Made by a program: the position numbers and the translations under genes | Notes under the pieces: generated by a model | The model's input: the letters and a program-made list of their open reading frames with translations, nothing else | The model's database searches: none | Told to the model about the DNA's origin: nothing | Shown: piece by piece, positions 2,009 through 51,646 of the stretch | Layout: every line of letters starts with the position of its first letter | Position numbering within the stretch: position 1 is the stretch's first letter | Source of the DNA: Spirochaetia bacterium | GTDB taxonomy: Bacteria > Spirochaetota > Spirochaetia > SP-2023 | Direction of reading: 5' to 3' | Assembly (NCBI GenBank): GCA_965225855.1 | Contig: CBDDCK010000005.1 | Coordinates: 96,001 to 160,000 of the forward strand | DNA: 64,000 nucleotides

Positions 2009-2071
2009 AGGGATTTACAGACTAGCCCGTATGGGTTGGCTAATCTTTATCCCTTGTTGGAGGTATTGCTT

Positions 2072-13974: not shown

Positions 13975-14130
13975 GCCCGTAAAAGTTTTCGCTTAGGGGT
14001 ATTTGTTGGGGGCTGCATGCAAAGCGGCTATCGCCCCACTCGGTATACGGCACATACAATTGGTTGAGTCCTAAAAAGTCGATCGATATTTGTTTTTGGC
14101 TCTCTAGGCTTAGTGCGGCAAAATCTTGGG
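13975..14130 (-). pseudogene. mod: 3' remnant of a type III mod gene
   Basis: Translates as DFAALSLESQKQISIDFLGLNQLYVPYTE...RFACS...LSENFY, matching the C-termini of the intact Mod proteins. Confidence 0.85.
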
Positions 14131-14154
14131 GGGTTGGGGGCTCTGCCATTAAGA

Positions 14155-14526
14155 CTAATTGCTTTCTTCTTTGCTAGTTTCTAGCATTTGAGGGCTATGA
14201 GAAACGTGCCGATGGGCTTCTATCATGTTTATTTGCAATCTCTTTTCATCGCTGTCTCTCCTTATCGTATCAATCTCTTTTTCCATCTTTAGTTGACGCG
14301 CCTCTATATTAGAAACATCTTTCCTTATTTGGGAAAGCTCGATTTTTATTTCCGATATAGCTACTTGCAATTGCCCTATTTTATCTTGCAATTGCCCTAT
14401 TTTGTCTTGTAATTCTCTGTGATCATTGCGGCGGTCTCTATTTGCGCTCATCGTGTGGGTAACTATGGCATTGATGATAAACGCTACCGCCAACACTGCC
14501 GATATAATAAGACTTATGAAATCCAT
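14155..14526 (-). CDS. Small protein, N-terminal TM helix plus coiled coil
   Basis: AAGGA RBS; hydrophobic N-terminus; LQDKIGQ x2 (21-bp duplication). Confidence 0.7.
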   Translation of the reverse strand: MDFISLIISAVLAVAFIINAIVTHTMSANRDRRNDHRELQDKIGQLQDKIGQLQVAISEIKIELSQIRKDVSNIEARQLKMEKEIDTIRRDSDEKRLQINMIEAHRHVSHSPQMLETSKEESN

Positions 14527-14706
14527 AGTTTTATTTCCTTAGTAGGTAGCAACCCTGAACATTGATATGCTAAGATATAGAGAGTCAAAGGCCAACTCAA
14601 GAGAAAAGAGATTTTATCAATAAATTGTATTCTAAGCAATTGAATTAGGCAAAGTCAAGCAAAGAACAGCCTAGCTTACCATAAATTGCCTACCCCCAAC
14701 CACAAA

Positions 14707-17208
14707 TTAGCGGTAAGGAATACTGCTTGTATGTATGGCAGGCTCTTCCAGTTGGGGGAATTTATTACCCTTTTTGTATAGTTGCAAAAGATAGTTTATA
14801 TATAACCGCTCGGCCTTGCTGGCCTTAGGGGCCGTTAGTACCGCACATAGCTTATTTAGTTTATCGGTTTCTATATAAATATAGGGCACGCTCTTGGTCT
14901 CTATATCTTGTAATTGTTCGCTCTGGAGTATTTCGGGGATATGTTCTGGGCCGGCAAAACACACGAAACGGTATTCTTGTTCGTGGGCATAGCTTTTATC
15001 TTTTATCAAATAGCGTATGCCGTTTAGTAATTCTAAGCATTTGTGGTATATATCGGGTTTTTGTTGTGCTTCTTCCTTTATTTTTTGTTGTTCTTCTCTT
15101 TTTATCTTTTTAAGGCTTTCTTTTATTTGTTTTATTTCCCCATCTACTGCTTTGTTGCCACTATTTATATAGTGGACTTGATACAATATCTGTGGGGGTG
15201 CTGCTTCTTCTGTGCTTTTTATATTTTTTGACCGTGTAGCTGTTTTGCCTTGCTTACTATCATCACTTGATTCATTAACTGAAGATAATGAAGGAAGCGG
15301 TATAGACTGATCTTGCTTGCTATATCCAATATGCTCTGGCCCACTATAGACTAAGTCTTTTGTTTGAAAGAGCAAAGCAATACCTTTAGCATCATCGCCG
15401 TACATACTCCATATGGGCAAAAGGTCTAAACCTTTTATATCTTTGCCACCACAAAAGCTAGCCACCATTATATAGGGAATATCGGCACTGGATTCTATTG
15501 GTTCGGGTGCAAGGCCTAAGGCTGTAAATAATGCTCTTCCTTCGGTGGGGTCGTTGGCATAGACAATATGGTACATGCGCAATTTGCCTAGTTTTGGTTT
15601 TCCCTCACTGTTTATCGGGACCAAATACTTCGTAAATACCGATAGTTTGGTAGTATGGGAAAGATATGTTACACTGTCTGTAGAGTCTTTGTTTACCTTT
15701 AATTTGTCTAATATTTGGTGAACACTTTCAAAGATAGCAAAGATATTCTTAGCAATATTATCTTCTTTAGAATTTTCTTTATTATCTTTTGGAAACGCTT
15801 TTGCTTTATATGCTGCTATATTTTCACTAGATACACCATACCGCAAAGCCTTATTGAGGTTATCAATCGCTTTTAGATATTCTTCTTTATTAAGAAAATC
15901 TATCCCTTGTTGTAAGTATTTTAATTTATAATCTGGCTTTAGCTCTGTTACTTTATCAAAATCGGCTACTGCTTGTTCGTATTCTTTTTGTTTTGCATAA
16001 GCAAGGCCTCTGTTATAATACGCATTGGCTTTGTCGTTGTTATCTGTTGCTAACTCAATGGCTTTTGTGTAATCCGCTATCGCTAGCTCATATTTTCCTT
16101 GTTCGCTGTAAGTAAAACCTCTGTTGTTATACGCAATTGCTTTGTTGTTATCATTTGTATCTAGCGCAATAACTTGCGTATATTCTGCTATGGCTTCTGC
16201 GTATTTTTTTTGTCCTAAGTACGCAATTCCTATGTTGCCATACGCTACTGCTTTGCCGTTGTTATCCGTGAATAGCTCAATGGCCTCTTTATAATCCGCT
16301 ATCGCTAGCTCGTATTCTCTTTGTTCTAAGTACGCAATGCCTTTGTTGATATACTCAATTGCTTTGTCGTTGTTATCCGTGAATAGCTCAATGGCCTCTT
16401 TATAATCCGCTATCGCTAGCTCGTATTCTTTTTGTTTTAAGTACGCAACGCCCCTACTTCCATACGCCCTCGCCTTGTCGTTATTGTCCGTATATCGCTC
16501 AATAGCTTGGGTAAAATTATCTATCGCTTGTTCGTATTCTCCTTGTTCTTCGTAATAAAAGCCTCTAACAAGATACTCCCCCGCTTTTTGTTCATTGTCT
16601 GTTGCTAACTCAATGGTTTCTGTAGAATCCGCTTTTGCTTTTGCGTACTTTTCTTGTTTTTCATAAGTAACGCCTTTGTTGTTATACGCATTAGCTTTAA
16701 TGTTATTATCGTTTGCTAGCCTTATGGCTTCTGTATTATCCGCTTTTGCTTTTTCGTATTCCCCTTGTTCGCTGTAAACAACGCCTCTGCCAAGATGTGC
16801 AAATGCTTTCGTACTATTATCGGTAGCTAGCTCAATGGCCTTTGTGTGATTCGCTATCGCTGGTTCGTATTTTCTTTGTTCTTCATAAATAATGCCTATA
16901 TTGGTATACGCCTGTGCTTTGTCGTTGTTATCCGTAAATAACTTAATGGCTTGGGTAAAATCCTCTATCGCTGGCTTGTATTCCTTTCGTTCCCTGTAAG
17001 CATTGCCTCTGTCGTTATACGCCTTTGCTTTGTCGTTATTATCCGTGAATAGCTCAATGGCCTGCGTATAGTCCGCTATCGCTTGTTGGTATTTTCCTTG
17101 TCCGCTGTGCGCATTGCCTCTGTCGTTATACGCCTCCCCCCTCTGTTCATTGGTAGAATTGGGGTTTTCAATAATCTGTGTGTATTGTTCTATTTCACGG
17201 TCGTTCAT
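14707..17208 (-). CDS. TPR-repeat protein (about 12 units) with C-terminal DUF2971-like domain (type X)
   Basis: AYxxRGxxY 37-aa repeats; YANDPTEG, LPIWSMYGDDAKGIAL and KDKSYAHEQEYR motifs; ATGA overlap with mod. Confidence 0.85.
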   Translation of the reverse strand: MNDREIEQYTQIIENPNSTNEQRGEAYNDRGNAHSGQGKYQQAIADYTQAIELFTDNNDKAKAYNDRGNAYRERKEYKPAIEDFTQAIKLFTDNNDKAQAYTNIGIIYEEQRKYEPAIANHTKAIELATDNSTKAFAHLGRGVVYSEQGEYEKAKADNTEAIRLANDNNIKANAYNNKGVTYEKQEKYAKAKADSTETIELATDNEQKAGEYLVRGFYYEEQGEYEQAIDNFTQAIERYTDNNDKARAYGSRGVAYLKQKEYELAIADYKEAIELFTDNNDKAIEYINKGIAYLEQREYELAIADYKEAIELFTDNNGKAVAYGNIGIAYLGQKKYAEAIAEYTQVIALDTNDNNKAIAYNNRGFTYSEQGKYELAIADYTKAIELATDNNDKANAYYNRGLAYAKQKEYEQAVADFDKVTELKPDYKLKYLQQGIDFLNKEEYLKAIDNLNKALRYGVSSENIAAYKAKAFPKDNKENSKEDNIAKNIFAIFESVHQILDKLKVNKDSTDSVTYLSHTTKLSVFTKYLVPINSEGKPKLGKLRMYHIVYANDPTEGRALFTALGLAPEPIESSADIPYIMVASFCGGKDIKGLDLLPIWSMYGDDAKGIALLFQTKDLVYSGPEHIGYSKQDQSIPLPSLSSVNESSDDSKQGKTATRSKNIKSTEEAAPPQILYQVHYINSGNKAVDGEIKQIKESLKKIKREEQQKIKEEAQQKPDIYHKCLELLNGIRYLIKDKSYAHEQEYRFVCFAGPEHIPEILQSEQLQDIETKSVPYIYIETDKLNKLCAVLTAPKASKAERLYINYLLQLYKKGNKFPQLEEPAIHTSSIPYR

Positions 17209-19109
17209 GCCTTATCTCCCTTGTAAAAACTTTCGCTTAGGGTAATTTCTTGGTCCGTGCATGCAAAGCGTGTATCTTTGCGCTCGGTATACGGCACATA
17301 CAATTGGTTGAGTTCCAAAAAGTCTATCAATATTTGCCTTTGCTTTTCTAGGCTTAGCGCAGCAAAATCTTCGGGGTTTTGTTGCACGGCTTCGGTGTTT
17401 AGGCGGTAGTCCAAATCGGGGTTTTGGAGTAGCTCTTGCTGTATTTGCAACAATTGCTCTTTAGTGGTGGACTCCGCAATACGCTCTATAAAATTTTGGT
17501 TGTGCTGTTTGAGCTCCAAATAGACAAAGCTGCCACCGCCTTGCCAAGCTACATTTTTGCTTATGCCGCCTTGCTCGCCTTCAATTACTTTGGTTAAGCG
17601 TTGTACGGAAATACTTTGTATGTAGTCCATTTGCTCTATGCCGATGTATTGCCTACCCATTTTGTGCGCCACCGCCGCAGTAGTTCCGCTGCCCAGACAA
17701 AAGTCTAAAACAATATCGCCTTCCTTGGTTGCAATTTGCAAAATACATTGAATAAGCCCTTCAGGTTTTGGAGTATCAAATTTATTTACAGTACCAAAGA
17801 TATTTAATATCTCTTTTGTTGCGACTGTTCCTTGAGGAACAAAATCCCATATTGTAGAGTAAGGTATTCCTTCTTGTACTTCTGATAAAAAACGCTTTAA
17901 CTTAGGGCGTCCTTTTCCATCTTTACCAAAATAGATTTCATTATTTGCTAATAATGTCTTTATTGTATTTTCATTAAATCTCCAATTCCCATTTGAAGAG
18001 GGATAATGTTCTTCATTCGTAAATGGATTTCTTATTGCAAAATATAACGAATTAACAAATCTTCCACCTTTAACATTAGCCATAAGATTATCTACAGCCC
18101 AACATCCTTTAGGATGATTATCTGGATTAGAATATCGACTTAACTGTTCTTGACTTCTTTTTCTCCTATATAGCTTAGGATTTTCTTTAGAATAAAGTAA
18201 AATATTTTCATGAGTTGAACCAATAACTTTATCATTAGGCGCACCACTTCTCTTTTTCCAAACAATATTATTTACAAAGTTTTCCCGTCCAAAGACTTCG
18301 TCCATCAGCACCTTCAAATAAGCCTGTTCGTTGTCATCACACTGAACAAAAATCACGCCATCGTCTCGCAGCAGTTCGCGCGCTGCTTCCAGGCGGTTTT
18401 TCATAAATACCAACCAAGTGCTGTGGTTAAAGTTGTCGTTGTACTGAAAGCTGTCGTTGCCGGTGTTATACGGCGGGTCGATGTAGATGAGCTTAACCTT
18501 TTTGGCAAATTGTTCCTTGATTGTGTGCAGGGCAATTAGGTTGTTGCCTTTAATAATCAAATTATCGCTGATAGTATTGTCGCTTGGGTTGCGTGTAAAT
18601 TCGGTAATTGGCTGGTGGCCTTCCTTATTATAGCGTTGGGAATTGGTTAATACTTTGGGGTCCAGCAAGCGGTCTATTTGTTCTATCGCAAGTATGCGGT
18701 GGTAGTAGCGTTCGCTGCGCTTGGCATCGTCTTTGCATTGGCCACCTTCCAGTACGCAGTCTTTAAACGGAAAGGCCAGCACCACATCTTGGCTTTTCTT
18801 CAGATAGTCGCGGTCGTCATGCAAGCCAATTTTGTTACGATAGGCGGTGTAGCTATTGGCCACAAAGCGTTTGTGCTGTATGTAGTCGATAAAATGGTCG
18901 CGCACAAATACGCTGTGCCCTTCGTGCTCAAAAAAGAACGCCTGCCGGGTAGCACTATTATCAAACAATAATTCTAGCAAATTGCGCTGGCACTGCTGGG
19001 CTAGCTTATACAATAAAGCCGTGTTCAGCTCGCCCTCTTGGTCTAAATAGTGGTGTTGTGCCTTTAGTAAATTCTTTAGATATTCTAGGCTTAGGGGCTG
19101 GCTTTTCAT
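17205..19109 (-). CDS. mod: Type III R-M Mod methyltransferase (ModA-like, beta class), allele 1
   Basis: SYTAYRNKIGL...FPFKDCVLEGG N-domain, IYIDPPY (motif IV), TRD, PKPE and DFCLGSGTT (motif I); AGGAG RBS. Confidence 0.93.
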   Translation of the reverse strand: MKSQPLSLEYLKNLLKAQHHYLDQEGELNTALLYKLAQQCQRNLLELLFDNSATRQAFFFEHEGHSVFVRDHFIDYIQHKRFVANSYTAYRNKIGLHDDRDYLKKSQDVVLAFPFKDCVLEGGQCKDDAKRSERYYHRILAIEQIDRLLDPKVLTNSQRYNKEGHQPITEFTRNPSDNTISDNLIIKGNNLIALHTIKEQFAKKVKLIYIDPPYNTGNDSFQYNDNFNHSTWLVFMKNRLEAARELLRDDGVIFVQCDDNEQAYLKVLMDEVFGRENFVNNIVWKKRSGAPNDKVIGSTHENILLYSKENPKLYRRKRSQEQLSRYSNPDNHPKGCWAVDNLMANVKGGRFVNSLYFAIRNPFTNEEHYPSSNGNWRFNENTIKTLLANNEIYFGKDGKGRPKLKRFLSEVQEGIPYSTIWDFVPQGTVATKEILNIFGTVNKFDTPKPEGLIQCILQIATKEGDIVLDFCLGSGTTAAVAHKMGRQYIGIEQMDYIQSISVQRLTKVIEGEQGGISKNVAWQGGGSFVYLELKQHNQNFIERIAESTTKEQLLQIQQELLQNPDLDYRLNTEAVQQNPEDFAALSLEKQRQILIDFLELNQLYVPYTERKDTRFACTDQEITLSESFYKGDKA

Positions 19110-19137
19110 GGTTTCTCCTATTTGTTTATACTGTATA

Positions 19138-19210
19138 ACGATAATTTATTTGCCTACAGTGGCCAAGCTCTCCCCGTATTTAGGGCGGGCTCTGACCGTA
19201 TTTAGGGCGG
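19138..19210 (-). promoter_or_regulatory. Cassette promoter plus two 22-bp repeats
   Basis: TTGGCC-17-TATCGT on the minus strand; repeats GCTCTnnCCGTATTTAGGGCGG at 19167-19210 abut the -35 box. Confidence 0.7.
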
Positions 19211-19231
19211 GCTATTTCTTGAAAGGCAACG

Positions 19232-21619
19232 CTAACTTTTTAGTGTTTTGGCAAGCTCGATTATTTGCTTTAGCTCTTCAATCGGTAAGTCGCTGGAGTG
19301 TTTTTTGCTAAAAATAGTTGTCGGGCTGCGTTTTATGGTGTCTATCATTGCTGCTAATAACTTGGGCTGTAGTTTCGAGTCTGGGCTTTCTAGGTTTTCT
19401 ATTTCCTGTTTATAGGCAATATAAGATTTGGCAAATATGGTTTTGTGGGTATATTCTTGCAAAAGCATATTGGCCTCGCTCCTGCGTTTGGCAAAGAAAC
19501 TGGTAAGCCATATTATGGGGGCAAGCAAAGGCAAGGCAGTGAGTATAGTAGTAAGACTAAAAGAATCGTTATTCCAACCTATCTGCCATAAGGCTACAAC
19601 AATTAGCGCTCCTATTCCAATTATAAACAATCCTGTCCATATTCCTACACTCCACTTTAGTTTCTTTTGTTCCTTTTCATATTCTTCTGCCAACCCAATA
19701 CTGCGAGCCTCCCCAGATAAACGGTCAAATTCTACTTGTTTTTCTTTTATTTCAGCTATGGAAAGGTTTAGTTTTGCTTCTTTAAGTTTTGGGTTTAAAT
19801 TTAAGGTATTTTTATAGTCGGCTATGGCATCTGGATATTTTTCTTGTTCACTGTAAGCATTGCCTCTATTGGTATACGCATTAGCTTTCGTTTCATTATC
19901 TGTTGCTAACTCAATGGCTTGGTTAAAGTCGGCTATCGCTAGCTCGTATTCTTTTTGTTCTCTATAAGCATTCCCTCTGTTGTTATAAGCACTTGCTTTC
20001 GTTTCATTATTTGTTGCTAACTCAATGGCCTGGGTATAGTCTAATATGGCCTCTGCGGAATTTCCTTGTTTTTTGTAAGTAAGTCCTCTGTTATAATACG
20101 CATTGGCTTTGTCGTTGTTATCTGTGGCTAGCTCAATGGCTTTTGTATAATCCGCTAGCGCTAGCTCGTATTTTTCTTGTTCATCGTAAGCATTTCCTCT
20201 GTTGAAATACGCCTTTGCTTGAATATTATTGTCTGTAGATAAGCTAATGGCCTGTGTATAGTCCGCTATCGCTAGCTTGTATTCTTTTTGTTCATCGTAA
20301 GCATTTCCTCTGTTGAAATACGCCTTTGCTTGAATATTATTGTCTGTAGATAAGCTAATGGCCTCTTTAAAATCCGCTATTGCGGGCTCGTATTCTTTTT
20401 GTTCTCTATAAGCATTGCCTCTGTTGTTATAAGCACTTGCTTTCGTTTCATTATTTGTTGCTAACACAATAGCTTGGGTATAGTCGACTATGGCTTCTAA
20501 GTATTCTCCTTGTTTGTTGTAAGTATTCCTTCTGTTGGTATACGCCTTTGCTTGAATATTATTGTCTGTACCTAACTCAATGGCCTGTGTAAAATCCGCT
20601 ATCGCTAGCTCGTATTCATATATTTCGCTGTACGCATTGCCTCTGTTAATATACGCATTAGCTTTGTCGTTGTTATTCGTATATAAGCCAATAGCCTGGG
20701 TATAGTCGGCTATGGCTTCTGGGTATTCTCCTTGTTCGCTGTACGCATTGCCTCTGTTGTTATACGCAATTGCTTTTTCGTTATTATCCGTGAATAACTC
20801 AATGGCCTCTTTAAAATACGCTATCGCTGGCTCGTATTTCTTTTGTTCTCTATAAGCAACGCCTTTGTTAATATACGCATTAGCTTTGTCGTTGTTATTC
20901 GTATATAAGCCAATAGCCTGGGTATAGTCGGCTATGGCTTCTGGGTATTCTCCTTGTTCGCTGTACGCATTGCCTCTGTTGTTATACGCAATTGCTTTTT
21001 CGTTATTATCCGTGAATAACTCAATGGCCTCTTTAAAATACGCTATCGCTGGCTCGTATTTCTTTTGTTCTCTATAAGCAACGCCTTTGTTAAAATAGGC
21101 AGTTGCTTTCGTTTCATTATTTGTTGCTAACTTAATGGCCTGTTTGTAGTCCTCTATCGCTAGCTCGTATTTTCCTTGTTTTTTGTAAGTAATGCCTCTG
21201 CTGTTATAAGCATTTGCTTTAACATTATCATCTTTAGCTAGCTCAATGGCTTTTGTACAGTCCTCTATCGCTAGCTTGTATTCTCCTTGTTCACTGTAAG
21301 CATTGCCTCTATTGGTATACGCATTAGCTTTTTCGTTACTATCCGTATATCGCTTAATAACCTGTGTAAAATCCGCTATCGCTGACTCGTATTCTTTTTG
21401 TTCTAAATACGCAATGCCTCTGTTGCTATACGCCTTTGCTTTGTTGTTATTATCCGTGAATAGCTCAATGGCCTCTGTAAGATCTGCTATCGCTGGCTTA
21501 TATTCTTTTTGTTCTCCGTACCTAATGCCTCTAGCAAGATACGCCCCCGCCTTCTTTTCATTGGTAGAATTGGGGTTTTTAATAATCTTTGTGTATTTTT
21601 CTATTAAAGGGTTATTCAC
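19232..21619 (-). CDS. TPR-repeat protein (16 units) with C-terminal coiled coil plus 2-TM domain
   Basis: 37-aa TPRs including a near-exact 2-unit duplication; two hydrophobic helices followed by RRSEANMLLQEYTHK; GTGA overlap with mod. Confidence 0.85.
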   Translation of the reverse strand: MNNPLIEKYTKIIKNPNSTNEKKAGAYLARGIRYGEQKEYKPAIADLTEAIELFTDNNNKAKAYSNRGIAYLEQKEYESAIADFTQVIKRYTDSNEKANAYTNRGNAYSEQGEYKLAIEDCTKAIELAKDDNVKANAYNSRGITYKKQGKYELAIEDYKQAIKLATNNETKATAYFNKGVAYREQKKYEPAIAYFKEAIELFTDNNEKAIAYNNRGNAYSEQGEYPEAIADYTQAIGLYTNNNDKANAYINKGVAYREQKKYEPAIAYFKEAIELFTDNNEKAIAYNNRGNAYSEQGEYPEAIADYTQAIGLYTNNNDKANAYINRGNAYSEIYEYELAIADFTQAIELGTDNNIQAKAYTNRRNTYNKQGEYLEAIVDYTQAIVLATNNETKASAYNNRGNAYREQKEYEPAIADFKEAISLSTDNNIQAKAYFNRGNAYDEQKEYKLAIADYTQAISLSTDNNIQAKAYFNRGNAYDEQEKYELALADYTKAIELATDNNDKANAYYNRGLTYKKQGNSAEAILDYTQAIELATNNETKASAYNNRGNAYREQKEYELAIADFNQAIELATDNETKANAYTNRGNAYSEQEKYPDAIADYKNTLNLNPKLKEAKLNLSIAEIKEKQVEFDRLSGEARSIGLAEEYEKEQKKLKWSVGIWTGLFIIGIGALIVVALWQIGWNNDSFSLTTILTALPLLAPIIWLTSFFAKRRSEANMLLQEYTHKTIFAKSYIAYKQEIENLESPDSKLQPKLLAAMIDTIKRSPTTIFSKKHSSDLPIEELKQIIELAKTLKS

Positions 21620-23514: not shown

Positions 23515-23542
23515 GGTTTCTCCTATTTGTTTATACTGTATA

Positions 23543-23681
23543 ACGATAATTTATTTGCCTACAGTGGCCAAGCTCTCCCCGTATTTAGCCAAAGTTATTC
23601 CCGTATTTAGGGCGGGCTCTCCCCGTATTTGTCTAAAGCTCTGACCGTATTTAAGGCGGGCTCTTCCCGTATTTAGCCGGG
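23543..23681 (-). promoter_or_regulatory. Cassette promoter plus five 22-bp repeats
   Basis: TTGGCC-17-TATCGT; repeats at 23572-23681. Confidence 0.75.
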
Positions 23682-23701
23682 GCGCTTGGCGGGTAGCCAA
23701 A

Positions 23702-27432: not shown

Positions 27433-27460
27433 GGTTTCTCCTATTTAGTTATAGTATATA

Positions 27461-27577
27461 ATCATAATCAATTTACGTACAGTGGCCAAGCTCTCCCCGT
27501 ATTTAGCTTCGGCTCTGACCGTATTTGTCTAAAGCTCTGACCGTATTTAGGGCGGGCTCTTCCCGTATTTAGCCGGG
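27461..27577 (-). promoter_or_regulatory. Cassette promoter plus four 22-bp repeats
   Basis: TTGGCC-17-TATGAT; repeats at 27490-27577. Confidence 0.75.
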
Positions 27578-27628
27578 GTGGTTTGCGGGGGTAGCCAAAC
27601 TATGGCCATAATAACGGCGGTATGTTGT

Positions 27629-30600
27629 TTACGGTGTATATTTGGTAAACTCTAGGGTAAACAAACTTTCCGGTTTGCTTGTGGTTTCAAAAAACTGTAT
27701 GTCTGGCAACAGTTGGCATAGTAGCCGTTTGTCTTCTTTTGGGGTTTTCAGGCCAAAGATGATTTTTTGAATCTTTGCGCCGCCGTAGATGCCCGGTGGA
27801 AGTTTTTTGTCTTGCCGTTGGCCAAAGGCAATAAAGCGTCCTTCATGTTCGTATTGCCATTTGGGTTCTTTAATCGCAAATAAATTTTCAATACTGTGTG
27901 GTTGGGTATCGGTACTGTACTGCACCGGGGCATACAATATTTGCCCTTGCTGTAAAAACTGTCTCTCTATTTGATATTCAATGCAGATACCCCTGTGAGA
28001 GTCGGCATAATGGCTAAACAACAAAGTATTATTGACAATGTCGGTATATATTCCGTGCTCGTTTGGTTGATGTTCGGCCAAAGGAACAGAAAGGAAAAAT
28101 ATGCGCGGTTGATATGTATTTTGAAATACTTCTCTATAGTTATTATCCATATCAAGAAAGGGGCATTCCAATCGGTCATTGAGGGAGGCTATATCGCTAA
28201 AATATACCTGACCTTGCACCAAAAGGCTTATGGTATTTTTGTTCATCGGCTGAAACTTATAGCCAATTATGGTTGTATCGGTGTCTTTTGCCTTTTGGCA
28301 TTGTGTAGTAATCGCTTGTTCAAAGTCTTGCTTGGCTTTTTTGTGCTGTTGCATTACAGCATAGGTATTGCCTCTATTCCAGTATGCTTGCGCATAGTCG
28401 GCTTGTAGCCCAATAGCCTGACTAAAATCTGCTATCGCTTGTGGGTATTTTGCTGTTTTACAGTAGGCATTGCCTCTGTTGTTATAGGCCTGTGCTTTAG
28501 TTTGATTATTTGTTGCTAGCCCAATGGCCTGACTACAGTCTGCTATCGCTTGTGGGTATTTTGCTGTTTTACAGTAGGCATTGCCTCTGTTGCTATAGGC
28601 CTTGGCTTTGGTTTGATTATTTGTTGCTAGCCCAATGGCCTGACTACAGTCTGCTATCGCTTGTGGGTATTTTTGTTGTTGCAGGTAGGCATTGCCTCTG
28701 TTGCTATAGGCCTTGGCTTTGGTTTGATTATTTGTTGCTAGCCCAATGGCCTGACTACAGTCTGCTATCGCTTGTGGGTATTTTTGTTGTTGCAGGTAGG
28801 CATTGCCTCTGTTGCTATAGGCCTGTGCTTTGTGGTTGTTATCGGTGTATAAGCCAATGGCCTGTGTGTAGTCCGCTATCGCTAACTCGTATTGTTTTTG
28901 TTTTTTATAAGCATTGCCTCTGTTGCTATAGACCTGTGCTTTGTGGTTGTTATCGCTAGATAAGCTAATGGCCTGTGTGTAATCCGCTATCGCTTGTGGG
29001 TATTTTTGTTGTTTCTCATAAGTATTGCCTCTGTTGCTATAGGCCTTGGCTTGAATATTATTGTCTGTAGATAACTCAATAGCCTCTGTAAAATCTGCTA
29101 TCGCTAGCTCGTATTTTTCTTGTTCCCCGTAAATAGCTCCTCTGTTGGTATATACTTTGGCTTTGTCGTTGTTATCGCTAGATAAGCCAATGGCACGGGT
29201 AAAATCCGCTATCGCTTGTGGGTATTTTTGTTGTTTCTCATAAGCATTGCCTCTGTTGCTATAGGCCTTGGCTTGAATATTATTGTCTGTAGATAACTCA
29301 ATAGCCTCTGTAAAATCTGCTATCGCTAGCTTGTATTTTTGTTGTTGCAGGTAGGCATTGCCTCTGTTGCTATAGGCCTTGGCTTTGTCGTTGTTATCGC
29401 TAGATAAGCTAATGGTCTGGGTACAGTCTGCTATCGCTTGTGGGTATTTTTGTTGTTGCAGGTAGGCAGCGCCCCTGTTGCTATAGGCATTGGCTTTGTC
29501 GTTATTATTGGTAGCCAGCTCAATGGCCTGGGTAAAATCCTCTATCGCTTGTGGGTATTCTCCTTGTTTATGGTAAGTAAGGCCTCTGTTATAATAGGCC
29601 TTGGCTTTGTCGTTGTTATCGCTAGATAAGCCAATGGCTTGCGTACAGTCCGCTATCGCTTGTGGGTATTGTTGTTGTTGCAGGTAGGCAGCGCCCCTGT
29701 TGCTATAGGCCTTGGCTTTGTCGTTATTATTGGTAGCTAGCTCAATGGCCTGGGTAAAATCCTCTATAACTTGTGGGTATTCTCCTTGTTTATGGTAAGT
29801 AAGGCCTCTGTTATAATAGGCCTTGGCTTTGTCGTTGTTATCGCTAGATAAGCTAATGGCCTGTGTGTAATCCGCTATCGCTTGTGGGTATTTTTGTTGT
29901 TGCAGGTAGGCATTGCCTCTGTTGCTATAGGCATTGGCTTTGTCGTTATTATCGCTAGATAAGCTAATGGCCTGACTACAGTCCGCTATTGCTTGTGGGT
30001 ATTTTTGTTGTTGCAGGTAGGCATTGCCTCTGTTGCTATAGGCCTTGGCTTTGTGGTTGTTATCGCTAGATAAGCTAATGGCCTGACTATAATCCGCTAT
30101 CGCTTGTGGGTATTTTTGTTGTTTTTCATAAGCATTGCCTCTGTTGAAATAGGCCTGTGCTTTGTGGTTGTTATCGGTATATTGCTCAATCGCCTCTGTA
30201 AAATCCGCTATCGCTTGTGGGTATTTTGCTGTTTTACAGTAGGCATTGCCTCTATTGTGATACACTTTGGCTTTGTGGTTGTTATCGCTAGATAAGCTAA
30301 TGGCCTGGGTATAATCCGCTATCGCTAGCTCGTATTTTTGTTGTTTTTCATAAGCATTGCCTCTGTTGAAATAGGCCTGTGCTTTGTGGTTGTTATCGGT
30401 ATATCGCTCAATCGCCTCTGTAAAATCCGCTATTGCTTGTGGGTATTTTGCTGTTTTACAGTAGGCATTGCCTCTGTTGAAATAGGCCTGTGCTTTGTGG
30501 TTGTTATCGGTATATCGCTCAATCGCCTCTGTAAAATCCGCTATTGCGGGCTCATATTCTCCTTGTTCGCTGTAAGCAGAGCCTCTGCCGTTATAAGCCT

Positions 30601-31450
30601 GTGCTTTGTCGTTGTTATCGGTATATAAGCCAATGGCCTGACTAAAATCCGCTATTGCGGTCTGGTATTGTTTTTGTTCGCTGTAGGCATTGCCTCTGTT
30701 GCTATAGGCTTTGGCTTTGTCGTTGTTATCGGTGTATAAGCCAATGGCCTGACTATAATCCGCTATCGCTTGTGGGTACTTTTTTTGTTCGCTGTAGGCA
30801 AGTCCTCTGCCGTTATAGGCCTTGGCTTTGTCGTTGTTATCGGTATATAAGCCAATCCCTTGTGTATAGTCCGCTATCGCTTGTGGGTATTTTGCTGTTT
30901 TACAGTAGGCATTGCCTCTGTTGTCATATACCTTGGCTTTGTCGTTGTTATCGGTATATAAGCCAATGGCCTGGGTATAGTCTGCTATCGCTAGCTTGTA
31001 TTTTTCTTGTTTCCCATAAGTAAGGCCTCTGTTGAGATAGGCCTTGGCTTTGTTGTTGTTATCGGTGTATAAGCCAATGGCCTGACTAAAATCCGCTATT
31101 GCGGGCTCGTATTGTTTTTGTTTCTCATAAGCATTGCCTCTGTTGTTATAGGCCTTGGCTTTGTCGTTATTATCCGTGAATAGCTCAATGGCCTGTGTGT
31201 AGTCCGCTATCGCTTGTGGGTATTTTGCTGTTTTAAAGTACGCATTGCCTCTGTTGAAATACGGCTTGGCTTTGTCGTTGTTATCTTTGTATAAGCCAAT
31301 GGCCTGGGTATAATCCGCTATCGCTAGCTTGTGTTCTCCTTGTTCGCTGTAGGCATTGCCTCTGTTGAAATACGCCTTTGTCCTCTGTTCATCTAAAAAG
31401 TTTGGGTCTTCAATAATCTGTGTATACTGTTCTATTTCACTGTTATTCAT
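27629..31450 (-). CDS. Large TPR-repeat protein (28 units) with C-terminal DUF2971-like domain (type Y)
   Basis: 28 AYxNRG-type units with a 111-bp period; C-terminal domain homologous to that of 23702-25534; GGAGG RBS. Confidence 0.88.
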   Translation of the reverse strand: MNNSEIEQYTQIIEDPNFLDEQRTKAYFNRGNAYSEQGEHKLAIADYTQAIGLYKDNNDKAKPYFNRGNAYFKTAKYPQAIADYTQAIELFTDNNDKAKAYNNRGNAYEKQKQYEPAIADFSQAIGLYTDNNNKAKAYLNRGLTYGKQEKYKLAIADYTQAIGLYTDNNDKAKVYDNRGNAYCKTAKYPQAIADYTQGIGLYTDNNDKAKAYNGRGLAYSEQKKYPQAIADYSQAIGLYTDNNDKAKAYSNRGNAYSEQKQYQTAIADFSQAIGLYTDNNDKAQAYNGRGSAYSEQGEYEPAIADFTEAIERYTDNNHKAQAYFNRGNAYCKTAKYPQAIADFTEAIERYTDNNHKAQAYFNRGNAYEKQQKYELAIADYTQAISLSSDNNHKAKVYHNRGNAYCKTAKYPQAIADFTEAIEQYTDNNHKAQAYFNRGNAYEKQQKYPQAIADYSQAISLSSDNNHKAKAYSNRGNAYLQQQKYPQAIADCSQAISLSSDNNDKANAYSNRGNAYLQQQKYPQAIADYTQAISLSSDNNDKAKAYYNRGLTYHKQGEYPQVIEDFTQAIELATNNNDKAKAYSNRGAAYLQQQQYPQAIADCTQAIGLSSDNNDKAKAYYNRGLTYHKQGEYPQAIEDFTQAIELATNNNDKANAYSNRGAAYLQQQKYPQAIADCTQTISLSSDNNDKAKAYSNRGNAYLQQQKYKLAIADFTEAIELSTDNNIQAKAYSNRGNAYEKQQKYPQAIADFTRAIGLSSDNNDKAKVYTNRGAIYGEQEKYELAIADFTEAIELSTDNNIQAKAYSNRGNTYEKQQKYPQAIADYTQAISLSSDNNHKAQVYSNRGNAYKKQKQYELAIADYTQAIGLYTDNNHKAQAYSNRGNAYLQQQKYPQAIADCSQAIGLATNNQTKAKAYSNRGNAYLQQQKYPQAIADCSQAIGLATNNQTKAKAYSNRGNAYCKTAKYPQAIADCSQAIGLATNNQTKAQAYNNRGNAYCKTAKYPQAIADFSQAIGLQADYAQAYWNRGNTYAVMQQHKKAKQDFEQAITTQCQKAKDTDTTIIGYKFQPMNKNTISLLVQGQVYFSDIASLNDRLECPFLDMDNNYREVFQNTYQPRIFFLSVPLAEHQPNEHGIYTDIVNNTLLFSHYADSHRGICIEYQIERQFLQQGQILYAPVQYSTDTQPHSIENLFAIKEPKWQYEHEGRFIAFGQRQDKKLPPGIYGGAKIQKIIFGLKTPKEDKRLLCQLLPDIQFFETTSKPESLFTLEFTKYTP

Positions 31451-31572
31451 GGTTTCCTCCGTTGTAAAAGTTTTCGCTTAGGGCTATTTGTTGGGGGCTG
31501 CAGCTAAAGCGGCTATCGCCCCGTTTGCTGTAGAGCTTTTCAGTATGCTAGGCTTAGGGGCTGGCTTTGCAT
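31451..31572 (-). pseudogene. mod: Internally deleted mod gene (first ~12 codons fused to last ~30 codons)
   Basis: MQSQPLSL... followed in another frame by YSKRGDSRFSCSPQQIALSENFYNGG. Confidence 0.85.
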
Positions 31573-31601
31573 GGATTTCTCCTATTGGGTTGTAGTGTAT
31601 C

Positions 31602-31674
31602 AGTATAATTGATTTGCCTACAGAGGTAAAGCTCTCTGCGTATTTAGGGCGGGCGCTTTGCGTATTGAGCCGGG
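31602..31674 (-). promoter_or_regulatory. Cassette promoter plus two degenerate 22-bp repeats
   Basis: TTTACC-17-TATACT; repeats at 31631-31674. Confidence 0.65.
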
Positions 31675-31686
31675 CCGGGCCGCAAG

Positions 31687-34078
31687 TTAGCGGTAAGGAA
31701 TACTGCTTTTATATATGGCCGGCTCTTCCAGTTTGGGGAATTTATTACCCTTTTTGTATAGTTGCAAAAGATAGTTTATATATAACCGCTCGGCCTTGCT
31801 GGCCTTAGGGGCCGTTAGTACCGCACATAGCTTATTTAGTTTATCGGTTTCTATATAAATATAGGGCACGCTCTTGGTCTCTATATCTTGTAATTGTTCG
31901 CTCTGGAGTATCTCGGGGATATGTTCTGTGCCGGCAAAACACACAAAACGGTATTCTTGTTCGTGGGCATAGCTTTTGTCTTTAATCAAATAGCGTATGC
32001 CGCTTAGTAACTCTAAGCATTTGTGGTATATATCAAGGTTATATTTAGGGTCTTTTGTTATATTTGCAAGTCCCTTTTCTATATTTTCTATCATTTTATC
32101 TATAGGCTTTTTATCATTTGCTTTTGTATTTTCTGGCTTTTGAACATAGTGGACTTTATACAATATCTGTGGGGGAATTTCTTTTTTTATGCTTTTTTTA
32201 CTTTGTAAGACTGAAGAAACCTCATTGTTTTCTAGGCTATTGTCTCCACTCTGTTTGAATGTGGCAGGTTGAAAATTAGATATTCCCTGCGTTTGTTCGC
32301 TATATCCCACATGCCCTGGCCCCTTGTAAGCCAAGTCTTTTGTTTGAAAGAGCAAGGCAATACCTTGGGCATTATCGCCGTACATACTCCATATGGGCAA
32401 ACGGTCTAAGGCTTCGGGTGTTTGGCCACCACAAAAGCTGGCCACCATTACATAGGGTATATCGGCACTGTCTTCTATTTGTTCGGGCGCAATGCCTAAG
32501 TGGTCCAATAGCACCATTCCTTCGGTGGGGTCGTTGGCATAGGCAATATGGTACATGCGCAATTTGCCTAGCTCCGGTTCTGTGTCGTTGTGTATCGGCA
32601 CAAGAAACTTAGTAAATACCGATAGTTTGGTTGTATGGGAAAGGTAGTTTACACTGTCTTTAGATTTGTCTTGTGCCTTATCTTTAGAGTCTTTGCTTAC
32701 CTTTAATTCGTCTAATATTTGGTGAACACTTTCAAAGATAGCAAAGATATTTTGGGCAATACTATCTTCATTAAATATTTTTTCTTTATATGTTGCTATA
32801 TCTTCACTAGATATGCCGTACCGTAAAGCCATATTGAGATCATTGATACTATTTAAGTAGTCTTGATTTCTAAGGTAAAGAACCGCTCTATTTAAGTAGT
32901 TTAGTCCATAATAAGGGTCTAGTTCTATTACCTTTGTATAATCATCTAGGGTTTGTTTTAAGTTTTTATTGTATGGCATAAACAGAACCCCTGCCAGCAT
33001 ATGCTTTTGCTTTGATTTTATTATCCGTAGCTAGCTCAATCGCTTGGGTAAAGTCCGCTATGGCCGTCTCGTATTTTCTTTGTCTTTCGTAAGCAGTTCC
33101 TTTATCAATATATGCCATTGCTTTAAGGTTATCATCTACAGCTAGCCCAATGGCTTTTTCAAATTCCGCTATCGCTTCTTCATACTGTTTTTGCTGTCTA
33201 TAAGCAAGGCCTCTGTTATAATACGCAACTGCTTTGTTGTTATCATTTGTATCTAGCGCAATAACTTGCGTATATTCTGCTATGGCTTCTGCGTATTTTT
33301 TTTGTTCTAAGTACGCAATTCCTATGTTGCCATACGCAACTGCTTTGCCGTTGTTATCCGTAAATAGCTCAATGGCCTCTGTAAAATCCGCTATCGCTAG
33401 CTCGTATTCTCTTTGTTCTCCGTACGCATTGCCTCTGTTGATATACGCAATTGCTTTGCCGTTGTTATCCGTGAATAACTCAATCGCCTCTGTAAAATCG
33501 GCTATCGCTAGCTGGTATTCTTTTTGTTTTAAGTACGCAACGCCCCTACTTCCATACGCCTTTGCTTTGTCGTTGTTATCCGTATATCGCTCAATAGCTT
33601 GGGTAAAATTATCTATCGCTTGTTCGTATTCTCCTTGTTCTTCGTAATAAAAGCCTCTAACAAGATACTCCCCCGCTTTTTGTTCATTGTGTTTTGCTAA
33701 CTCAATGTTTTTTGTAGAATCCGCTTTTGCTTCTGCGTACTTTCCTTGTTTTTCGTAAGTAAATTTTCTGCAAACATATGCAAATGCTTTCGTACTATTA
33801 TCGGTAGCTAGCTCAATGGCCTTTGTGTGATTCGCTATCGCTTGTTCGTATTTTCTTTGTTCTTCATAAATAATGCCTATATTGGTATACGCCTGTGCTT
33901 TGTCGTTGTTATCCGTAAATAACTTAATGGCTTGGGTAAAATCCTCTATCGCTGGCTTGTATTCCTTTCGTTCCCTGTAAGCATTGCCTCTGTCGTTATA
34001 CGCCTCCCCCCTCTGTTCATTGGTAGAATTGGGGTTTTCAATAATCTGTGTGTATTGTTCTATTTCACGGTCGTTCAT
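31687..34078 (-). pseudogene. Frameshifted TPR plus DUF2971-like (type X) gene; ORFs 32966-34078 and 31687-33000
   Basis: Both termini are near-identical to 14707-17208. Removing one base at 32968 joins ...YAIQ to KNLKQTLDDYTKVIELDP, restoring a continuous TPR. Confidence 0.8.
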
Positions 34079-35961
34079 GCCTTATCTCCCTTGTAAAAAC
34101 TCTCGCTTAGGTTAATTTCTTTGTCTGTGCAATGAAAGCGGGTGTCCTTGCGTTCACTGTAGGGCACATATAATTGGTTTAGTTCCAAAAAGTCAATAAG
34201 CGCTTGCCTTTGATTTTCTAGGCTTAGGGCGGAAAAATCTTTTGCGCTCTGCCGTACCTCTTGGGTGTTTAGGCGGTAGTCTAAATCGGGGTTTTGTAGT
34301 AACTCTTGCTGTATTTGGGCAAGCTGCGCTTGGGTGCTGGCCTCGGTAATACGCTCTATAAAAGTTTGGTTGTGCGCTTTCAGCTCTAAATAGACAAAGC
34401 TGCCACCGCCTTGCCAAGCTACATTTTTGCTTATGCCGCCCTGTTCGCCGGCAATTACTTTGGTTAAGCGCTCTACCGCAATAGTTTGTATATAGTCCAT
34501 TTGTTCTATGCCGATATATTGCCTAGCCATTTTGTGGGCCACCGCCGCAGTCGTGCCACTGCCCAAACAAAAGTCCAAAACTAGGTCGCCGGGCTGGGTG
34601 GCGATCTCGATAATCCTTTGTAACAGCCCTTCCGGCTTGGGATAGGCAAAAGCACTATTAGAGCCAAAAATAAGTTCTATTTCTTTACTGCCTTGTTCAT
34701 TTGTTGCAACATCAATTAAAAGAGTATTAGGTATTTGCCCTTCATTATCTTTCAAAAAAACTTTTGCTCTTGGCATTCCTTCCCCGCCTCTAGGGATAAC
34801 GACTAAATTATCTTTTAAGTATTGATCATAAGTCTTTTGGGAAACTCTCCATCTTGCTTTAATTTTTCTGCCGTTTCTTAAATCTAATTCAAACTCTTTG
34901 TTAGGTGAGTTATCTGGTGAAGCAAGAGGTTTTGTCATCCATAAACCACGGGAATCATTATCAGGATTCTTATACATTTCTTTCACATACTCTTGTCGCA
35001 AAGGTATTCTATTTATTGATAAACTATTTTTACTCTTCGCAAATCCTAAAATATATTCATGTATAGGAGCAATCCACTTAGTTAGATTTGCTTGGGTTTT
35101 TCTTCTTTTATAAACTAAACTAGCAACAAAATTCTCCCGTCCAAAGACTTCGTCCATCAGCACCTTTAAATAAGCTTGTTCGTTGTCATCACACTGCACA
35201 AAAAGCACGCCATCGTCTCGCAGCAGCTCGCGCGCTATTTCCAGACGGTTTTTGATAAAGACTAGCCAAGTGCTGTGATTAAAGTTATCGTTGTACAAAA
35301 AGCTATCGTTGCCGGTGTTATACGGCGGGTCGATGTAGATCAGCTGTACTTTTTTGGCAAATTGTTCGTTGATGCTGTGCAACGCAATGAGGTTGTTGCC
35401 CTTGATAATCAAATTGTCGCTAATGGTGTTATCGCTTTTATTGCGTGTAAATTCCCTACATTCGCTTGGGCCCTCCTTAGTATAGCGGCGGGCATTGGTA
35501 AGCACCTTCGGCTCCAGCAAGCGGTCAAGTTCCTCTATCGCCAGTATGCGGTGGTAGTAGCGTTCGCTGCGTTTGGCATCGTCTTTGCATTGACCGCCCT
35601 CCAGTACACAGTCCTTAAACGGAAAGGCCAGTACAATATCCTTGTTTTTCTTTAGATAGTCGCGGTCGTCATGCAAGCCAATTTTGTTACGATAGGCGGT
35701 GTAGCTATTGGCCACAAAGCGTTTGTGCTGTATGTAGTCGATAAAATGGTCGCGCACAAATACCGTAACCCCGCCCTGTTCCAAGAAAAACGCCTTGCGC
35801 GCAGCCGTATCGGCAAACAACAATTCTAGCAAAGAACGGTCGCACTGCTGGGCTAGCTTATACAATAAAGCCGTGTTTAGCTCGCCCTCTTGGTCTAAAT
35901 AGTGGGGCTGGGCTTGTAGCAAAGCTTTTAAGGATTCTAGGCTTAGGGCTGGGGTCTTCAT
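34075..35961 (-). CDS. mod: Type III Mod methyltransferase, allele 4
   Basis: DPPY and FCLGSGT motifs; distinct TRD; start at ATG 35961 after GGGAG. Confidence 0.93.
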   Translation of the reverse strand: MKTPALSLESLKALLQAQPHYLDQEGELNTALLYKLAQQCDRSLLELLFADTAARKAFFLEQGGVTVFVRDHFIDYIQHKRFVANSYTAYRNKIGLHDDRDYLKKNKDIVLAFPFKDCVLEGGQCKDDAKRSERYYHRILAIEELDRLLEPKVLTNARRYTKEGPSECREFTRNKSDNTISDNLIIKGNNLIALHSINEQFAKKVQLIYIDPPYNTGNDSFLYNDNFNHSTWLVFIKNRLEIARELLRDDGVLFVQCDDNEQAYLKVLMDEVFGRENFVASLVYKRRKTQANLTKWIAPIHEYILGFAKSKNSLSINRIPLRQEYVKEMYKNPDNDSRGLWMTKPLASPDNSPNKEFELDLRNGRKIKARWRVSQKTYDQYLKDNLVVIPRGGEGMPRAKVFLKDNEGQIPNTLLIDVATNEQGSKEIELIFGSNSAFAYPKPEGLLQRIIEIATQPGDLVLDFCLGSGTTAAVAHKMARQYIGIEQMDYIQTIAVERLTKVIAGEQGGISKNVAWQGGGSFVYLELKAHNQTFIERITEASTQAQLAQIQQELLQNPDLDYRLNTQEVRQSAKDFSALSLENQRQALIDFLELNQLYVPYSERKDTRFHCTDKEINLSESFYKGDKA

Positions 35962-35989
35962 AGTTTCTCCCATTTGTTTATACTGTATA

Positions 35990-36150
35990 ACTATAATTTA
36001 TTTGCCTACAGTGGCCAAGCTCTCCCCGTATTTAAGGCGGGCTCTTCCCGTATTTGTCTAAAGCTCTTCCCGTATTTAAGGCGGGCTCTTCCCGTATTTG
36101 TCTAAAGCTCTTCCCGTATTTAGGGCGGGCGCTTCCCGTATTTAGCCGGG
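35990..36150 (-). promoter_or_regulatory. Cassette promoter plus six 22-bp repeats
   Basis: TTGGCC-17-TATAGT; repeats at 36019-36150 with core GCTCTTCCCGTATTT. Confidence 0.75.
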
Positions 36151-48477: not shown

Positions 48478-48718
48478 TACCCCAATATACCCTAAAGTAT
48501 AAGTAAAGCCAAGTGCTTGACCTAAACTTTTTGGTAAAAAGTCAAGCAATAGTTTGGTTGTACCAAGCCCCACCAAAAGGCAAATAAAGTAGTCGATCGT
48601 AAAAACTAGATTATCATAAGCAAAACTATTCTACTACCAAGCGAGTAGTGGGTTACTAGCCATAGTACCCACCCAAAAGGCAAGCAAGGCTTGGCCAAAG
48701 TTTATCTTGTTACAAAAA

Positions 48719-51428: not shown

Positions 51429-51646
51429 AAGCAATACCTCCAACAAATGGATAAAGATTAGCCAACCCATACGGGCTAGTGTACAGCGCCCCATTTTGCT
51501 AGGGGGGGTGTTGCGTCAAGGCCTATATAAGCTTTTTGTAAGTTTTTTTGTGCTTTTTTATGTTTTGGGCACTTTTTTTGTGTGTTAGTGTTGTTTAGTG
51601 TTGTAAGGTGGTTCAAAATCCATGCCAATCAAAAGGCTTAAGGGTG

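What the first reader, a model, noticed from the sequence alone, without database searches (positions are those of the whole stretch)
13975..36150. Tandem array of Res-less type III Mod + TPR-effector cassettes: candidate undescribed defence or epigenetic system
Seen: five head-to-tail cassettes plus a sixth remnant. Each has its own repeat array, promoter and ModA-like methyltransferase, and the four intact mod stops overlap by 4 nt (ATGA/GTGA) with a TPR gene. Known: in type III R-M systems that downstream position is normally res, but no res occurs in the window. Inference: the TPR-effector has replaced Res, either as a sensor/guard that fires when Mod or methylation is inhibited, or as a toxin held in check by Mod. 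Three parts vary independently: the TRD, the TPR array and the effector domain. I know of no named system with this architecture.
Basis: partly seen in the sequence, partly recalled or inferred. Interest (0 to 1): 0.9.

Follow-up and report, generated by a model that had tools for sequence, protein, structure and literature searches.

The report
Methylase array carrying TPR-toxin passengers
This bacterium has stacked up copies of a DNA-methylase gene, each reading a different DNA sequence and each towing a repeat-protein defence gene, but the missing restriction enzyme is present elsewhere in the genome, so the array is most likely an unusually large variant of a known anti-virus layout and not a new self-contained system.

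Summary
The array is real. It has four intact type III mod genes (conserved frame, unrelated TRDs), one mod reduced to a stub, and one leaderless mod-tail remnant. Each intact mod overlaps a TPR-effector gene by 4 nt. It is not Res-less at genome level. An intact type III res lies about 630 kb away (G000:C5:763920-766484), heading a second mod-TPR array. That Res and all seven Mods have the same nearest relative, an ordinary mod-res pair. In 67 of 79 related loci res is beside mod (12 too short), often with passenger genes between, and none carries these TPR genes. The TPR-DUF2971 (ADP-ribosyltransferase fold) and TPR-two-helix-membrane genes occur in seven other genomes, with 0 of 24 behind a mod. 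Best reading: an amplified multi-specificity type III R-M system sharing one Res in trans, whose passenger slot captured pre-existing stand-alone TPR defence genes. The 22-bp leader repeats are genome-wide, not cassette-specific. A guard role remains open (about 15%).

The parts
35990..36144 (-). Leader 1: six 22-bp AAATACGG repeats, then a sigma70-like TTGGCC-17-TATAGT
34075..35973 (-). mod 1 (type III methyltransferase; likely start 35961). TRD 98% identical to mod B1 of the second array
32966..34078 (-). TPR gene 1, N-terminal part (9 units), overlaps mod 1 by ATGA; frameshifted from its effector
31687..33000 (-). TPR gene 1, C-terminal part: DUF2971 type A (HEQEYR, ExE motif)
31602..31670 (-). 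Leader 2 (degenerate, two repeat cores; TTTACC-17-TATACT)
31443..31570 (-). mod 2 stub: internal deletion leaving the first and last codons
   Evidence: bridged by a contig of run X4 from a second study
27629..31450 (-). TPR gene 2, 1273 aa, 28 units + DUF2971 type B (PDC-S31 models), intact
27461..27573 (-). Leader 3: four 22-bp repeats, TTGGCC-17-TATGAT
25531..27432 (-). mod 3
23702..25534 (-). TPR gene 3, 610 aa, 10 units + DUF2971 type B; predicted ADP-ribosyltransferase fold
23543..23687 (-). Leader 4: five 22-bp repeats
21616..23514 (-). mod 4
19232..21619 (-). TPR gene 4, 795 aa, 16 units + type C effector (coiled coil, two predicted membrane helices, no Pfam/PADLOC/NCBIfam match)
19138..19213 (-). 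Leader 5: two 22-bp repeats
17205..19109 (-). mod 5; a contig of run X5 joins its two conserved flanks across a skipped TRD interval
14707..17208 (-). TPR gene 5, 833 aa, 11 units + DUF2971 type A, intact fusion
14155..14526 (-). 123-aa ORF, hydrophobic N-terminus + coiled coil (DUF2730 match just over cut-off); single copy; role unclear
13976..14135 (-). mod C-terminal remnant, no leader, no TPR gene

Best explanation
An amplified, multi-specificity type III restriction-modification system with captured passengers. Shown: the genome has seven full-length mods of one family (four here, three in a second array at C5:769-784 kb) with six distinct TRDs, and one intact res of the matching family at C5:763920-766484. 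Inferred: each Mod dimer methylates its own site and loads the single Res in trans, giving up to six specificities from one nuclease gene. Inferred history: a mod-res locus was acquired, probably from another spirochaete lineage; a TPR-effector gene that already existed as a stand-alone defence gene entered the passenger slot behind mod; the unit leader-mod-TPR was then duplicated and shuffled by homologous recombination in the conserved mod ends, TPR repeats and leaders, swapping TRDs and effectors and leaving stubs. Inferred function of the passengers: one-gene abortive-infection-type defences, in which a variable TPR array binds a phage protein and activates a DarT-like ADP-ribosyltransferase (DUF2971) or a membrane-disrupting helical hairpin. 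They are co-transcribed with mod but do not depend on it.
For: Res present and intact: REase_III PDLC03651 E 4.7e-120; it matches 133 of 148 columns conserved in at least 90% of 54 relatives, including Walker A, DEAH, motif VI and PD..EPK. Cognate: Res and the seven Mods each have locus L025 as sister (100 support, FastTree), and the Res is 56% identical to L025's Res against 40% for the next. Of 79 related mod loci, 41 have this res directly downstream, 22 downstream after a gap over 600 nt, 3 directly upstream, 1 as a fragment about 1.1 kb upstream, and 12 end too soon. Gap genes include Abi_2, AAA ATPases, Bro-N, RhuM and an IrrE-like protein. G301 has four mods with repeated non-TPR cargo and one res; G303 has two loci with two mods each and a res match. 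M. bovis has one res and three mods about 70% identical (10.64898/2026.05.01.722158, section 18). Passengers are independent: 0 of 24 effector-domain matches in seven other genomes have a mod within 1.5 kb upstream. Both N-terminal caps of the window's TPRs resemble those of stand-alone homologues, by eye. DUF2971 alone is the single-gene antiphage system Aristaios (PMC11381338). All 7 structural matches with Z of 5 or more are Tpt1, DarT or Rhs toxin entries. The nearest neighbour among mods changes along the gene.
Against: Res-Mod pairing in trans is not shown: res is 630 kb from this array, lies upstream of its own array and lacks the repeat leader. The M. bovis paper tested only Mod1 with Res. 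All seven full-length mods are followed by a TPR gene with an overlapping start, and the junction persists in a contig from a second study. In G071, a TPR-DUF2971 gene sits directly upstream of two mods and about 11 kb from res, a second association with type III R-M. The trees flag unusual composition for both the Res and its sister. The fold matches are modest (Z 5.2-6.3), and Foldseek found nothing at E 0.001 or better. The 79 loci are the best 80 of a capped scan.
Confidence: 0.62

Rival explanations
1. Guard module. The TPR array monitors Mod, the Mod-Res complex or a phage anti-restriction protein, and fires the ADP-ribosyltransferase or membrane effector when R-M is inhibited, as PrrC does inside type I R-M. 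Res in trans is compatible with this.
For: 7 of 7 full-length mods have an overlapping TPR gene. G071 shows a second TPR-effector/type III cluster. Other copies lie next to hsdS, type II R-M or DarTG genes. Type B matches PDC-S31 models, a class defined from genes embedded in BREX, DISARM and type I R-M (10.1101/2024.01.29.577857 passages).
Against: 0 of 24 homologous effector matches elsewhere follow a mod. TPR gene 2 is intact behind a deleted mod. TPR number ranges from 3 to 28 against a nearly constant Mod frame, which fits a variable foreign ligand better than a fixed partner (inference). The seven pairs descend from one ancestor, so they are not independent evidence.
Confidence: 0.15
2. 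Orphan-methylase (epigenetic) array. The window's Mods no longer work with Res; they diversify the methylome or protect against incoming R-M, and the TPR genes ride along.
For: Res is distant and without the leader. A few conserved positions differ in all seven Mods. The genome has 27 N6_N4_Mtase matches.
Against: Res is intact and cognate. No simple-sequence repeat tract was found in the four mods, so they are not SSR-type phasevarions.
Confidence: 0.12
3. Toxin-antitoxin pair with Mod as the antitoxin, the TPR-effector replacing Res as the addictive partner.
For: mod-first gene order with translational overlap; the DUF2971 effector is toxin-like.
Against: An intact effector gene sits behind a mod stub. 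G002 carries TPR-DUF2971 with no PF12564 match (89% complete). ATGA overlaps also join mod to mod in G071, so they are ordinary coupling. Res has not been lost.
Confidence: 0.04
4. The TPR proteins are host-directed eukaryote-like effectors of a symbiont, and their place behind mod is incidental.
For: About 18% of DUF2971 proteins are predicted secreted effectors (PMC12522546 passage). TPR fusions are expanded in this genome.
Against: The N-termini are polar, with no signal peptide by eye (no predictor run). Neighbours are defence genes: ThsB-like TIR, 8xMP, HEC-06, DarTG, hsdS.
Confidence: 0.05
5. Misassembly of repeats.
For: No listed contig spans the whole stretch.
Against: Copies differ throughout, with unrelated TRDs. 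Unitigs with no differences bridge the mod3/TPR3 junction, two cassette ends and the frameshift. Contigs from a second study bridge the mod4/TPR4 and stub/TPR2 junctions.
Confidence: 0.02

Closest known systems
Multi-mod type III loci of Mycoplasma (M. bovis PG45 Mbo45ORF167P: one res, three mods; 10.64898/2026.05.01.722158, passages and section 18 read)
   Same: Several mods about 70% identical and one res; beta-class MTase with central TRD.
   Different: Here there are seven mods in two arrays, four of them 630 kb from res, with no SSR tracts and each followed by a TPR-effector gene.
TRD movement between type III mod genes in Helicobacter pylori (PMC3467074, abstract read)
   Same: Conserved frame with swapped TRDs; one TRD is shared at 98% between two loci; mosaic flanks.
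   Different: Whole leader-mod-passenger units are tandemly amplified, not single loci.
Embedded defence genes / PDC candidates, including PDC-S31 (Payne et al., 10.1101/2024.01.29.577857, passages read; supplement not seen)
   Same: Defence genes nested in R-M loci in the same orientation; type B effectors match PDC-S31 models (E down to 1.7e-29).
   Different: That study covered Hma, BREX, DISARM and type I R-M. Here the host is type III, the passenger is amplified with mod, and it carries long TPR arrays.
Aristaios (single-gene DUF2971 antiphage system; PMC11381338, passages read)
   Same: DUF2971 domain, predicted ADP-ribosyltransferase fold.
   Different: Aristaios is 316 aa and mostly the ART domain; these proteins add 9-28 TPR units. 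No activity was tested here.
PrrC embedded in EcoprrI (described in the Payne et al. passage)
   Same: A toxic gene inside an R-M locus that could back up restriction.
   Different: PrrC is almost always embedded in type I R-M (same paper); these TPR-effectors mostly stand alone (0 of 24 behind mod).

Membership tests
Type III R-M | Mod: beta-class N6-MTase, DPPY before TRD before FxGxG | tested here: met
   DPPY and FCLGSG with the TRD between in all four; PF12564+PF01555; PDLC03635
Type III R-M | Res with SF2 helicase and PD-(D/E)xK nuclease motifs encoded in the genome | tested here: met
   C5:763920-766484, PDLC03651; motifs intact
Type III R-M | res adjacent to mod in one operon | tested here: not met
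   No res in the window; res is 630 kb away, 2.7 kb upstream of the second array
Type III R-M | Mod2Res complex that methylates and cleaves | not testable with these tools
   Needs biochemistry or a methylome
SSR phasevarion | Simple-sequence repeat tract in mod | tested here: not met
   No homopolymer or 2-5-nt tract at the thresholds used in the four mods; the leader repeats are 22-bp units
DUF2971 ADP-ribosyltransferase (Aristaios-like) | PF11185 match over cut-off | tested here: met
   27.2, 28.4, 23.8, 25.7 bits against cut-off 22
DUF2971 ADP-ribosyltransferase (Aristaios-like) | Conserved Tyr and ExE motif (PMC12522546) | tested here: met
   Invariant Y101, E160, E162, R164 in alignment A2; assigning Y101 to motif II is my inference
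DUF2971 ADP-ribosyltransferase (Aristaios-like) | ART fold | tested here: inconclusive
   Model pLDDT 76; top seven matches are Tpt1/DarT/Rhs toxins at Z 5.2-6.3, rmsd 3.3-4.7, 100-153 aligned; below Z 8; Foldseek no match at E 0.001
DUF2971 ADP-ribosyltransferase (Aristaios-like) | Anti-phage activity as a single gene | not testable with these tools
   Bench test
PrrC-type R-M guard | Conserved linkage to the guarded R-M system across genomes | tested here: not met
   0 of 79 mod loci carry these genes; 0 of 24 effector matches follow a mod, 1 precedes one
PrrC-type R-M guard | Physical binding to the R-M complex and activation by anti-restriction proteins | not testable with these tools
   Needs pull-down and challenge experiments
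Toxin-antitoxin (Mod as antitoxin) | Toxin not found intact without its antitoxin | tested here: not met
   Intact TPR gene 2 behind a stub (other Mods could act in trans); G002 has TPR-DUF2971 and no PF12564 match

The most novel reading that the evidence does not exclude
The leader-mod-TPR-effector unit is a selected two-layer immune cassette. Each cassette adds a new restriction specificity to one shared Res and a receptor-like guard whose hypervariable TPR array senses phage anti-restriction proteins or inhibited Mod, then fires an interchangeable ADP-ribosyltransferase or membrane effector. The tandem arrays work as a recombining library that reassorts TRD, sensor and effector. This would be the first guard for type III R-M that I could find, and a bacterial parallel of variable receptor arrays.
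Probability: 0.15. Interest if true: 0.85.

Novelty: new variant of a known kind. Interest (0 to 1): 0.5.

Why it matters
If the best reading holds, one Res serves six specificities across two arrays 630 kb apart, more than the three mods of the M. bovis locus I read about. It is a natural test set for whether Res is promiscuous across Mods, and a source of new recognition sites. The passengers are of interest in their own right. They are a family of TPR-sensor fusions with swappable effectors (two DUF2971 ADP-ribosyltransferase subtypes and an unnamed two-helix membrane domain with 1446 representative clusters) whose repeat number varies from 3 to 28. That makes them good candidates for pattern-recognition anti-phage proteins. 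If the guard reading holds, it would be a new layer on type III restriction.

Tried and rejected
Complex prediction of mod 3 (residues 3-633) with the TPR region of gene 3 (1-368) gave no answer (score 0.00); this is no evidence either way. No RNA holder was listed, so expression is untested. The leader repeats do not fold better than shuffles (z 0.63). The exact repeat pattern was not found in G001, G002, G003, G071 or G116 (0 of 5). PF12564 was not found in the three same-genus genomes (89-92% complete). The metagenome scan with alignment A2 returned 80 distant DUF2971 loci, many short, with no Mod or Res hit; this is weak evidence. The type C effector has no Pfam, PADLOC or NCBIfam match, and 0 of 32 relatives scanned match DUF6161. 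The Atlas gave DUF6161 only as a lead (23% of one cluster, for a distant relative), and one paper mentions DUF6161 as a predicted defence family. The type C model was low confidence (pLDDT 61), so it was not searched. Foldseek gave no significant match for DUF2971. Two of my repeat-finding scripts missed arrays and were replaced. Joints seen in the source-like runs X1 and X3 were not used as evidence of rearrangement, because the second array explains many of them. Literature searches returned no listing that describes mod-TPR-DUF2971 cassettes; I judged most from titles and abstract starts, and the library lacks most subscription papers. The bioRxiv supplement defining PDC-S31 was not seen and may bear on its known neighbours.
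Full report
Observation. The - strand from 14.7 to 36.1 kb holds four intact type III mod genes, each overlapping a TPR gene by 4 nt. The Mods are 69-71% identical to the first, with invariant N- and C-terminal frames and a central TRD only 25-30% identical between copies. A fifth unit has leader and TPR gene but only a stub of mod, and the sixth piece is a leaderless mod tail. TPR gene 1 is frameshifted before its effector. TPR units are 37 aa, numbering 9, 28, 10, 16 and 11. Effectors fall in three classes: DUF2971 type A (genes 1, 5), DUF2971 type B (2, 3) and a two-membrane-helix type C (4). Contigs of public runs support the local structure. Unitigs with no differences bridge the frameshift, the mod3/TPR3 junction and two cassette ends. 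Contigs of a second study bridge the mod4/TPR4 and stub/TPR2 junctions and join the flanks of mod 5 across its TRD, which suggests another TRD allele there. No contig spans the whole array.

Res is in the genome. The window is G000:C5:96001-160000. A second array at C5:769-786 kb has three more full-length mods, two stubs, TPR-effector genes of types A and C, and other defence cargo: ThsB-like TIR, 8xMP, HEC-06/GmrSD and a type II methylase. PF12564 finds exactly seven mods, with six distinct TRDs; one TRD is shared at 98% between the arrays. Upstream of the second array, past HicB-like and ParA-like genes, is an 854-aa type III Res (PDLC03651, E 4.7e-120). It matches 133 of 148 columns conserved in at least 90% of 54 relatives, including all helicase and nuclease motifs I checked. 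Two other Res genes (979 and 971 aa) belong to another model family and follow their own mods.

It is the cognate Res. I fetched 79 loci of Mod relatives, the best of a capped scan. This Res family lies directly downstream in 41, downstream after a gap in 22, directly upstream in 3, and as an upstream fragment in 1; 12 loci end within 3 kb. None hits the window's TPR or effector domains. One locus (L055) has an unrelated protein with sub-cut-off TPR matches behind mod. In trees of 55 Res and 62 Mod rows, the Res and the clade of seven Mods each have L025, a spirochaete locus with mod then res, as sister at support 100. The tree warns of compositional bias, but identity agrees: 56% against 40% for the next Res. 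G116, labelled same class as this genome, gives the same Res match (counted once with L025), so the host is probably a spirochaete. The three same-genus genomes gave no PF12564 match, and a type II methylase region is 94% identical at DNA level to G071 of another family. Both point to horizontal acquisition.

The slot behind mod is a passenger slot. Of 19 passenger ORFs scanned, matches included Abi_2 (3), AAA ATPases (2), Bro-N (2), RhuM, an IrrE-like domain and DUF4145. G301 has four mods with repeated non-TPR cargo followed by one res; G303 has two loci with two mods each and a res match. One res with three mods about 70% identical is described for Mycoplasma bovis, though only Mod1 was tested with Res (10.64898/2026.05.01.722158). 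TRD exchange between mods by recombination in conserved flanks is described for H. pylori (PMC3467074, abstract), and the nearest neighbour among the seven mods changes along the gene.

The TPR-effectors exist without mod. Searches of 301 same-class genomes found type B in 7 others, type A in 3 and type C in 4. In 20 regions fetched from seven genomes, 0 of 24 effector-domain matches have a mod within 1.5 kb upstream, and 1 has mods downstream. That case, G071, clusters a type C gene, TPR-type A, two mods and a res, and is the best evidence for a real affinity with type III R-M. Others lie beside hsdS, type II R-M, DarTG or 8xMP genes. G116 holds the closest mod-res pair and, on another contig, a stand-alone TPR-type C gene. 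So the parts pre-existed separately and were joined in this lineage. The seven pairs share one ancestor and count once.

What the effectors are. Types A and B pass the DUF2971 cut-off and share NDPxE, YxD and ExExR motifs; type B matches PDC-S31 models. The predicted fold's seven best matches are Tpt1, DarT and Rhs toxin entries at Z 5.2-6.3. This is modest, but it agrees with papers that place DUF2971 near DarT (PMC12522546, passages) and show a DUF2971 gene, Aristaios, acting alone against phage (PMC11381338, passages). Type C is an unnamed family with 1446 representative clusters at E 0.001 or better and two hydrophobic helices. That the TPR arrays are sensors is inference from architecture and repeat variability.

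Leaders. The 22-bp repeats form 24 arrays across the genome. They also precede mods of the other family and lipoprotein-like genes, and some precede no gene. They are a genome-specific dispersed repeat, plausibly a recombination substrate or protein-binding array, not a cassette signature. A sigma70-like pair sits at a fixed place in the leaders but is not significant against shuffles.

Verdict. The locus works like a multi-mod type III system with embedded defence genes (0.62). A guard role (0.15) and orphan methylases (0.12) are the main rivals; Mod-as-antitoxin, host effectors and misassembly are unlikely. The components and the one-res/many-mod layout are known, and earlier scan notes reached the same Mycoplasma comparison for other genomes. 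The scale, the remote res and the uniform TPR-effector passengers were not found in my searches. New variant of a known kind; interest 0.5.

Noticed in passing
G000:C5:763920-786552 (L001, L002): Second array: res, HicB-like genes, ParA-like gene, three mod-TPR cassettes, two mod stubs, ThsB-like TIR + 8xMP, HEC-06/GmrSD, type II methylase with a REase remnant. Its TPR-DUF2971 gene is also split before the effector, at a different place from gene 1.
   Followed up: yes
G000:C5:924890-941272 (L238): Cluster of other TPR fusions: three TPR proteins with similar C-terminal domains (AAA_21 shown for one), two followed by a small partner gene, a 952-aa TPR protein with 20 units, and GmrSD_N/HEPN genes. 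TPR fusion to defence-like domains looks like a genome-wide theme.
   Followed up: partly
G000:C5:1804250-1810200 (L006): A mod of the other type III family, with the 22-bp leader, lies directly upstream of cas12a; its start and leader match the mod at C5:538368, which has passengers and a res.
   Followed up: partly
G000 whole genome: 27 N6_N4_Mtase matches in 2.7 Mb; G071, G095 and G154 have 16, 21 and 21, so heavy R-M load recurs in these lineages.
   Followed up: partly
G000:C5:777100-778300 vs L148:8300-10500: Type II methylase and REase remnant are 94% identical in DNA to G071 of another family, suggesting recent exchange.
   Followed up: partly
G000, 24 sites (e.g. C5:1231285-1231593, 15 units): Dispersed 22-bp AAATACGG minisatellite, often upstream of mods or of a lipoprotein-like gene family; the exact pattern was not found in five other genomes; function unknown.
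   Followed up: partly
P0017-P0165; window 19232-19789: Type C effector belongs to a large unnamed family (1446 representative clusters), usually at the C-terminus of 300-500-aa proteins.
   Followed up: partly
L084 / L241 (G301:C1:3875-3892 kb): Parallel array of four mods with a repeated two-gene cargo and a small gene pair, ending in one res.
   Followed up: partly
window 2036-4099, 49071-51494, 60680-62560: Long ORFs with 363-372-nt internal repeats and no convincing Pfam match; probably surface proteins.
   Followed up: no
window 4452-5171, 47950-48576: Coiled-coil ORFs built from 21-33-nt repeats.
   Followed up: no
window 48715-48954, 51904-52002: Non-coding 23-bp tandem repeat arrays of a different family from the leaders.
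   Followed up: no
G000:C5:81274-83900 (L239): 758-aa TPR protein with a TIR-like start (by eye), followed by two 22-bp repeat arrays interleaved with TPR-like fragments.
   Followed up: no
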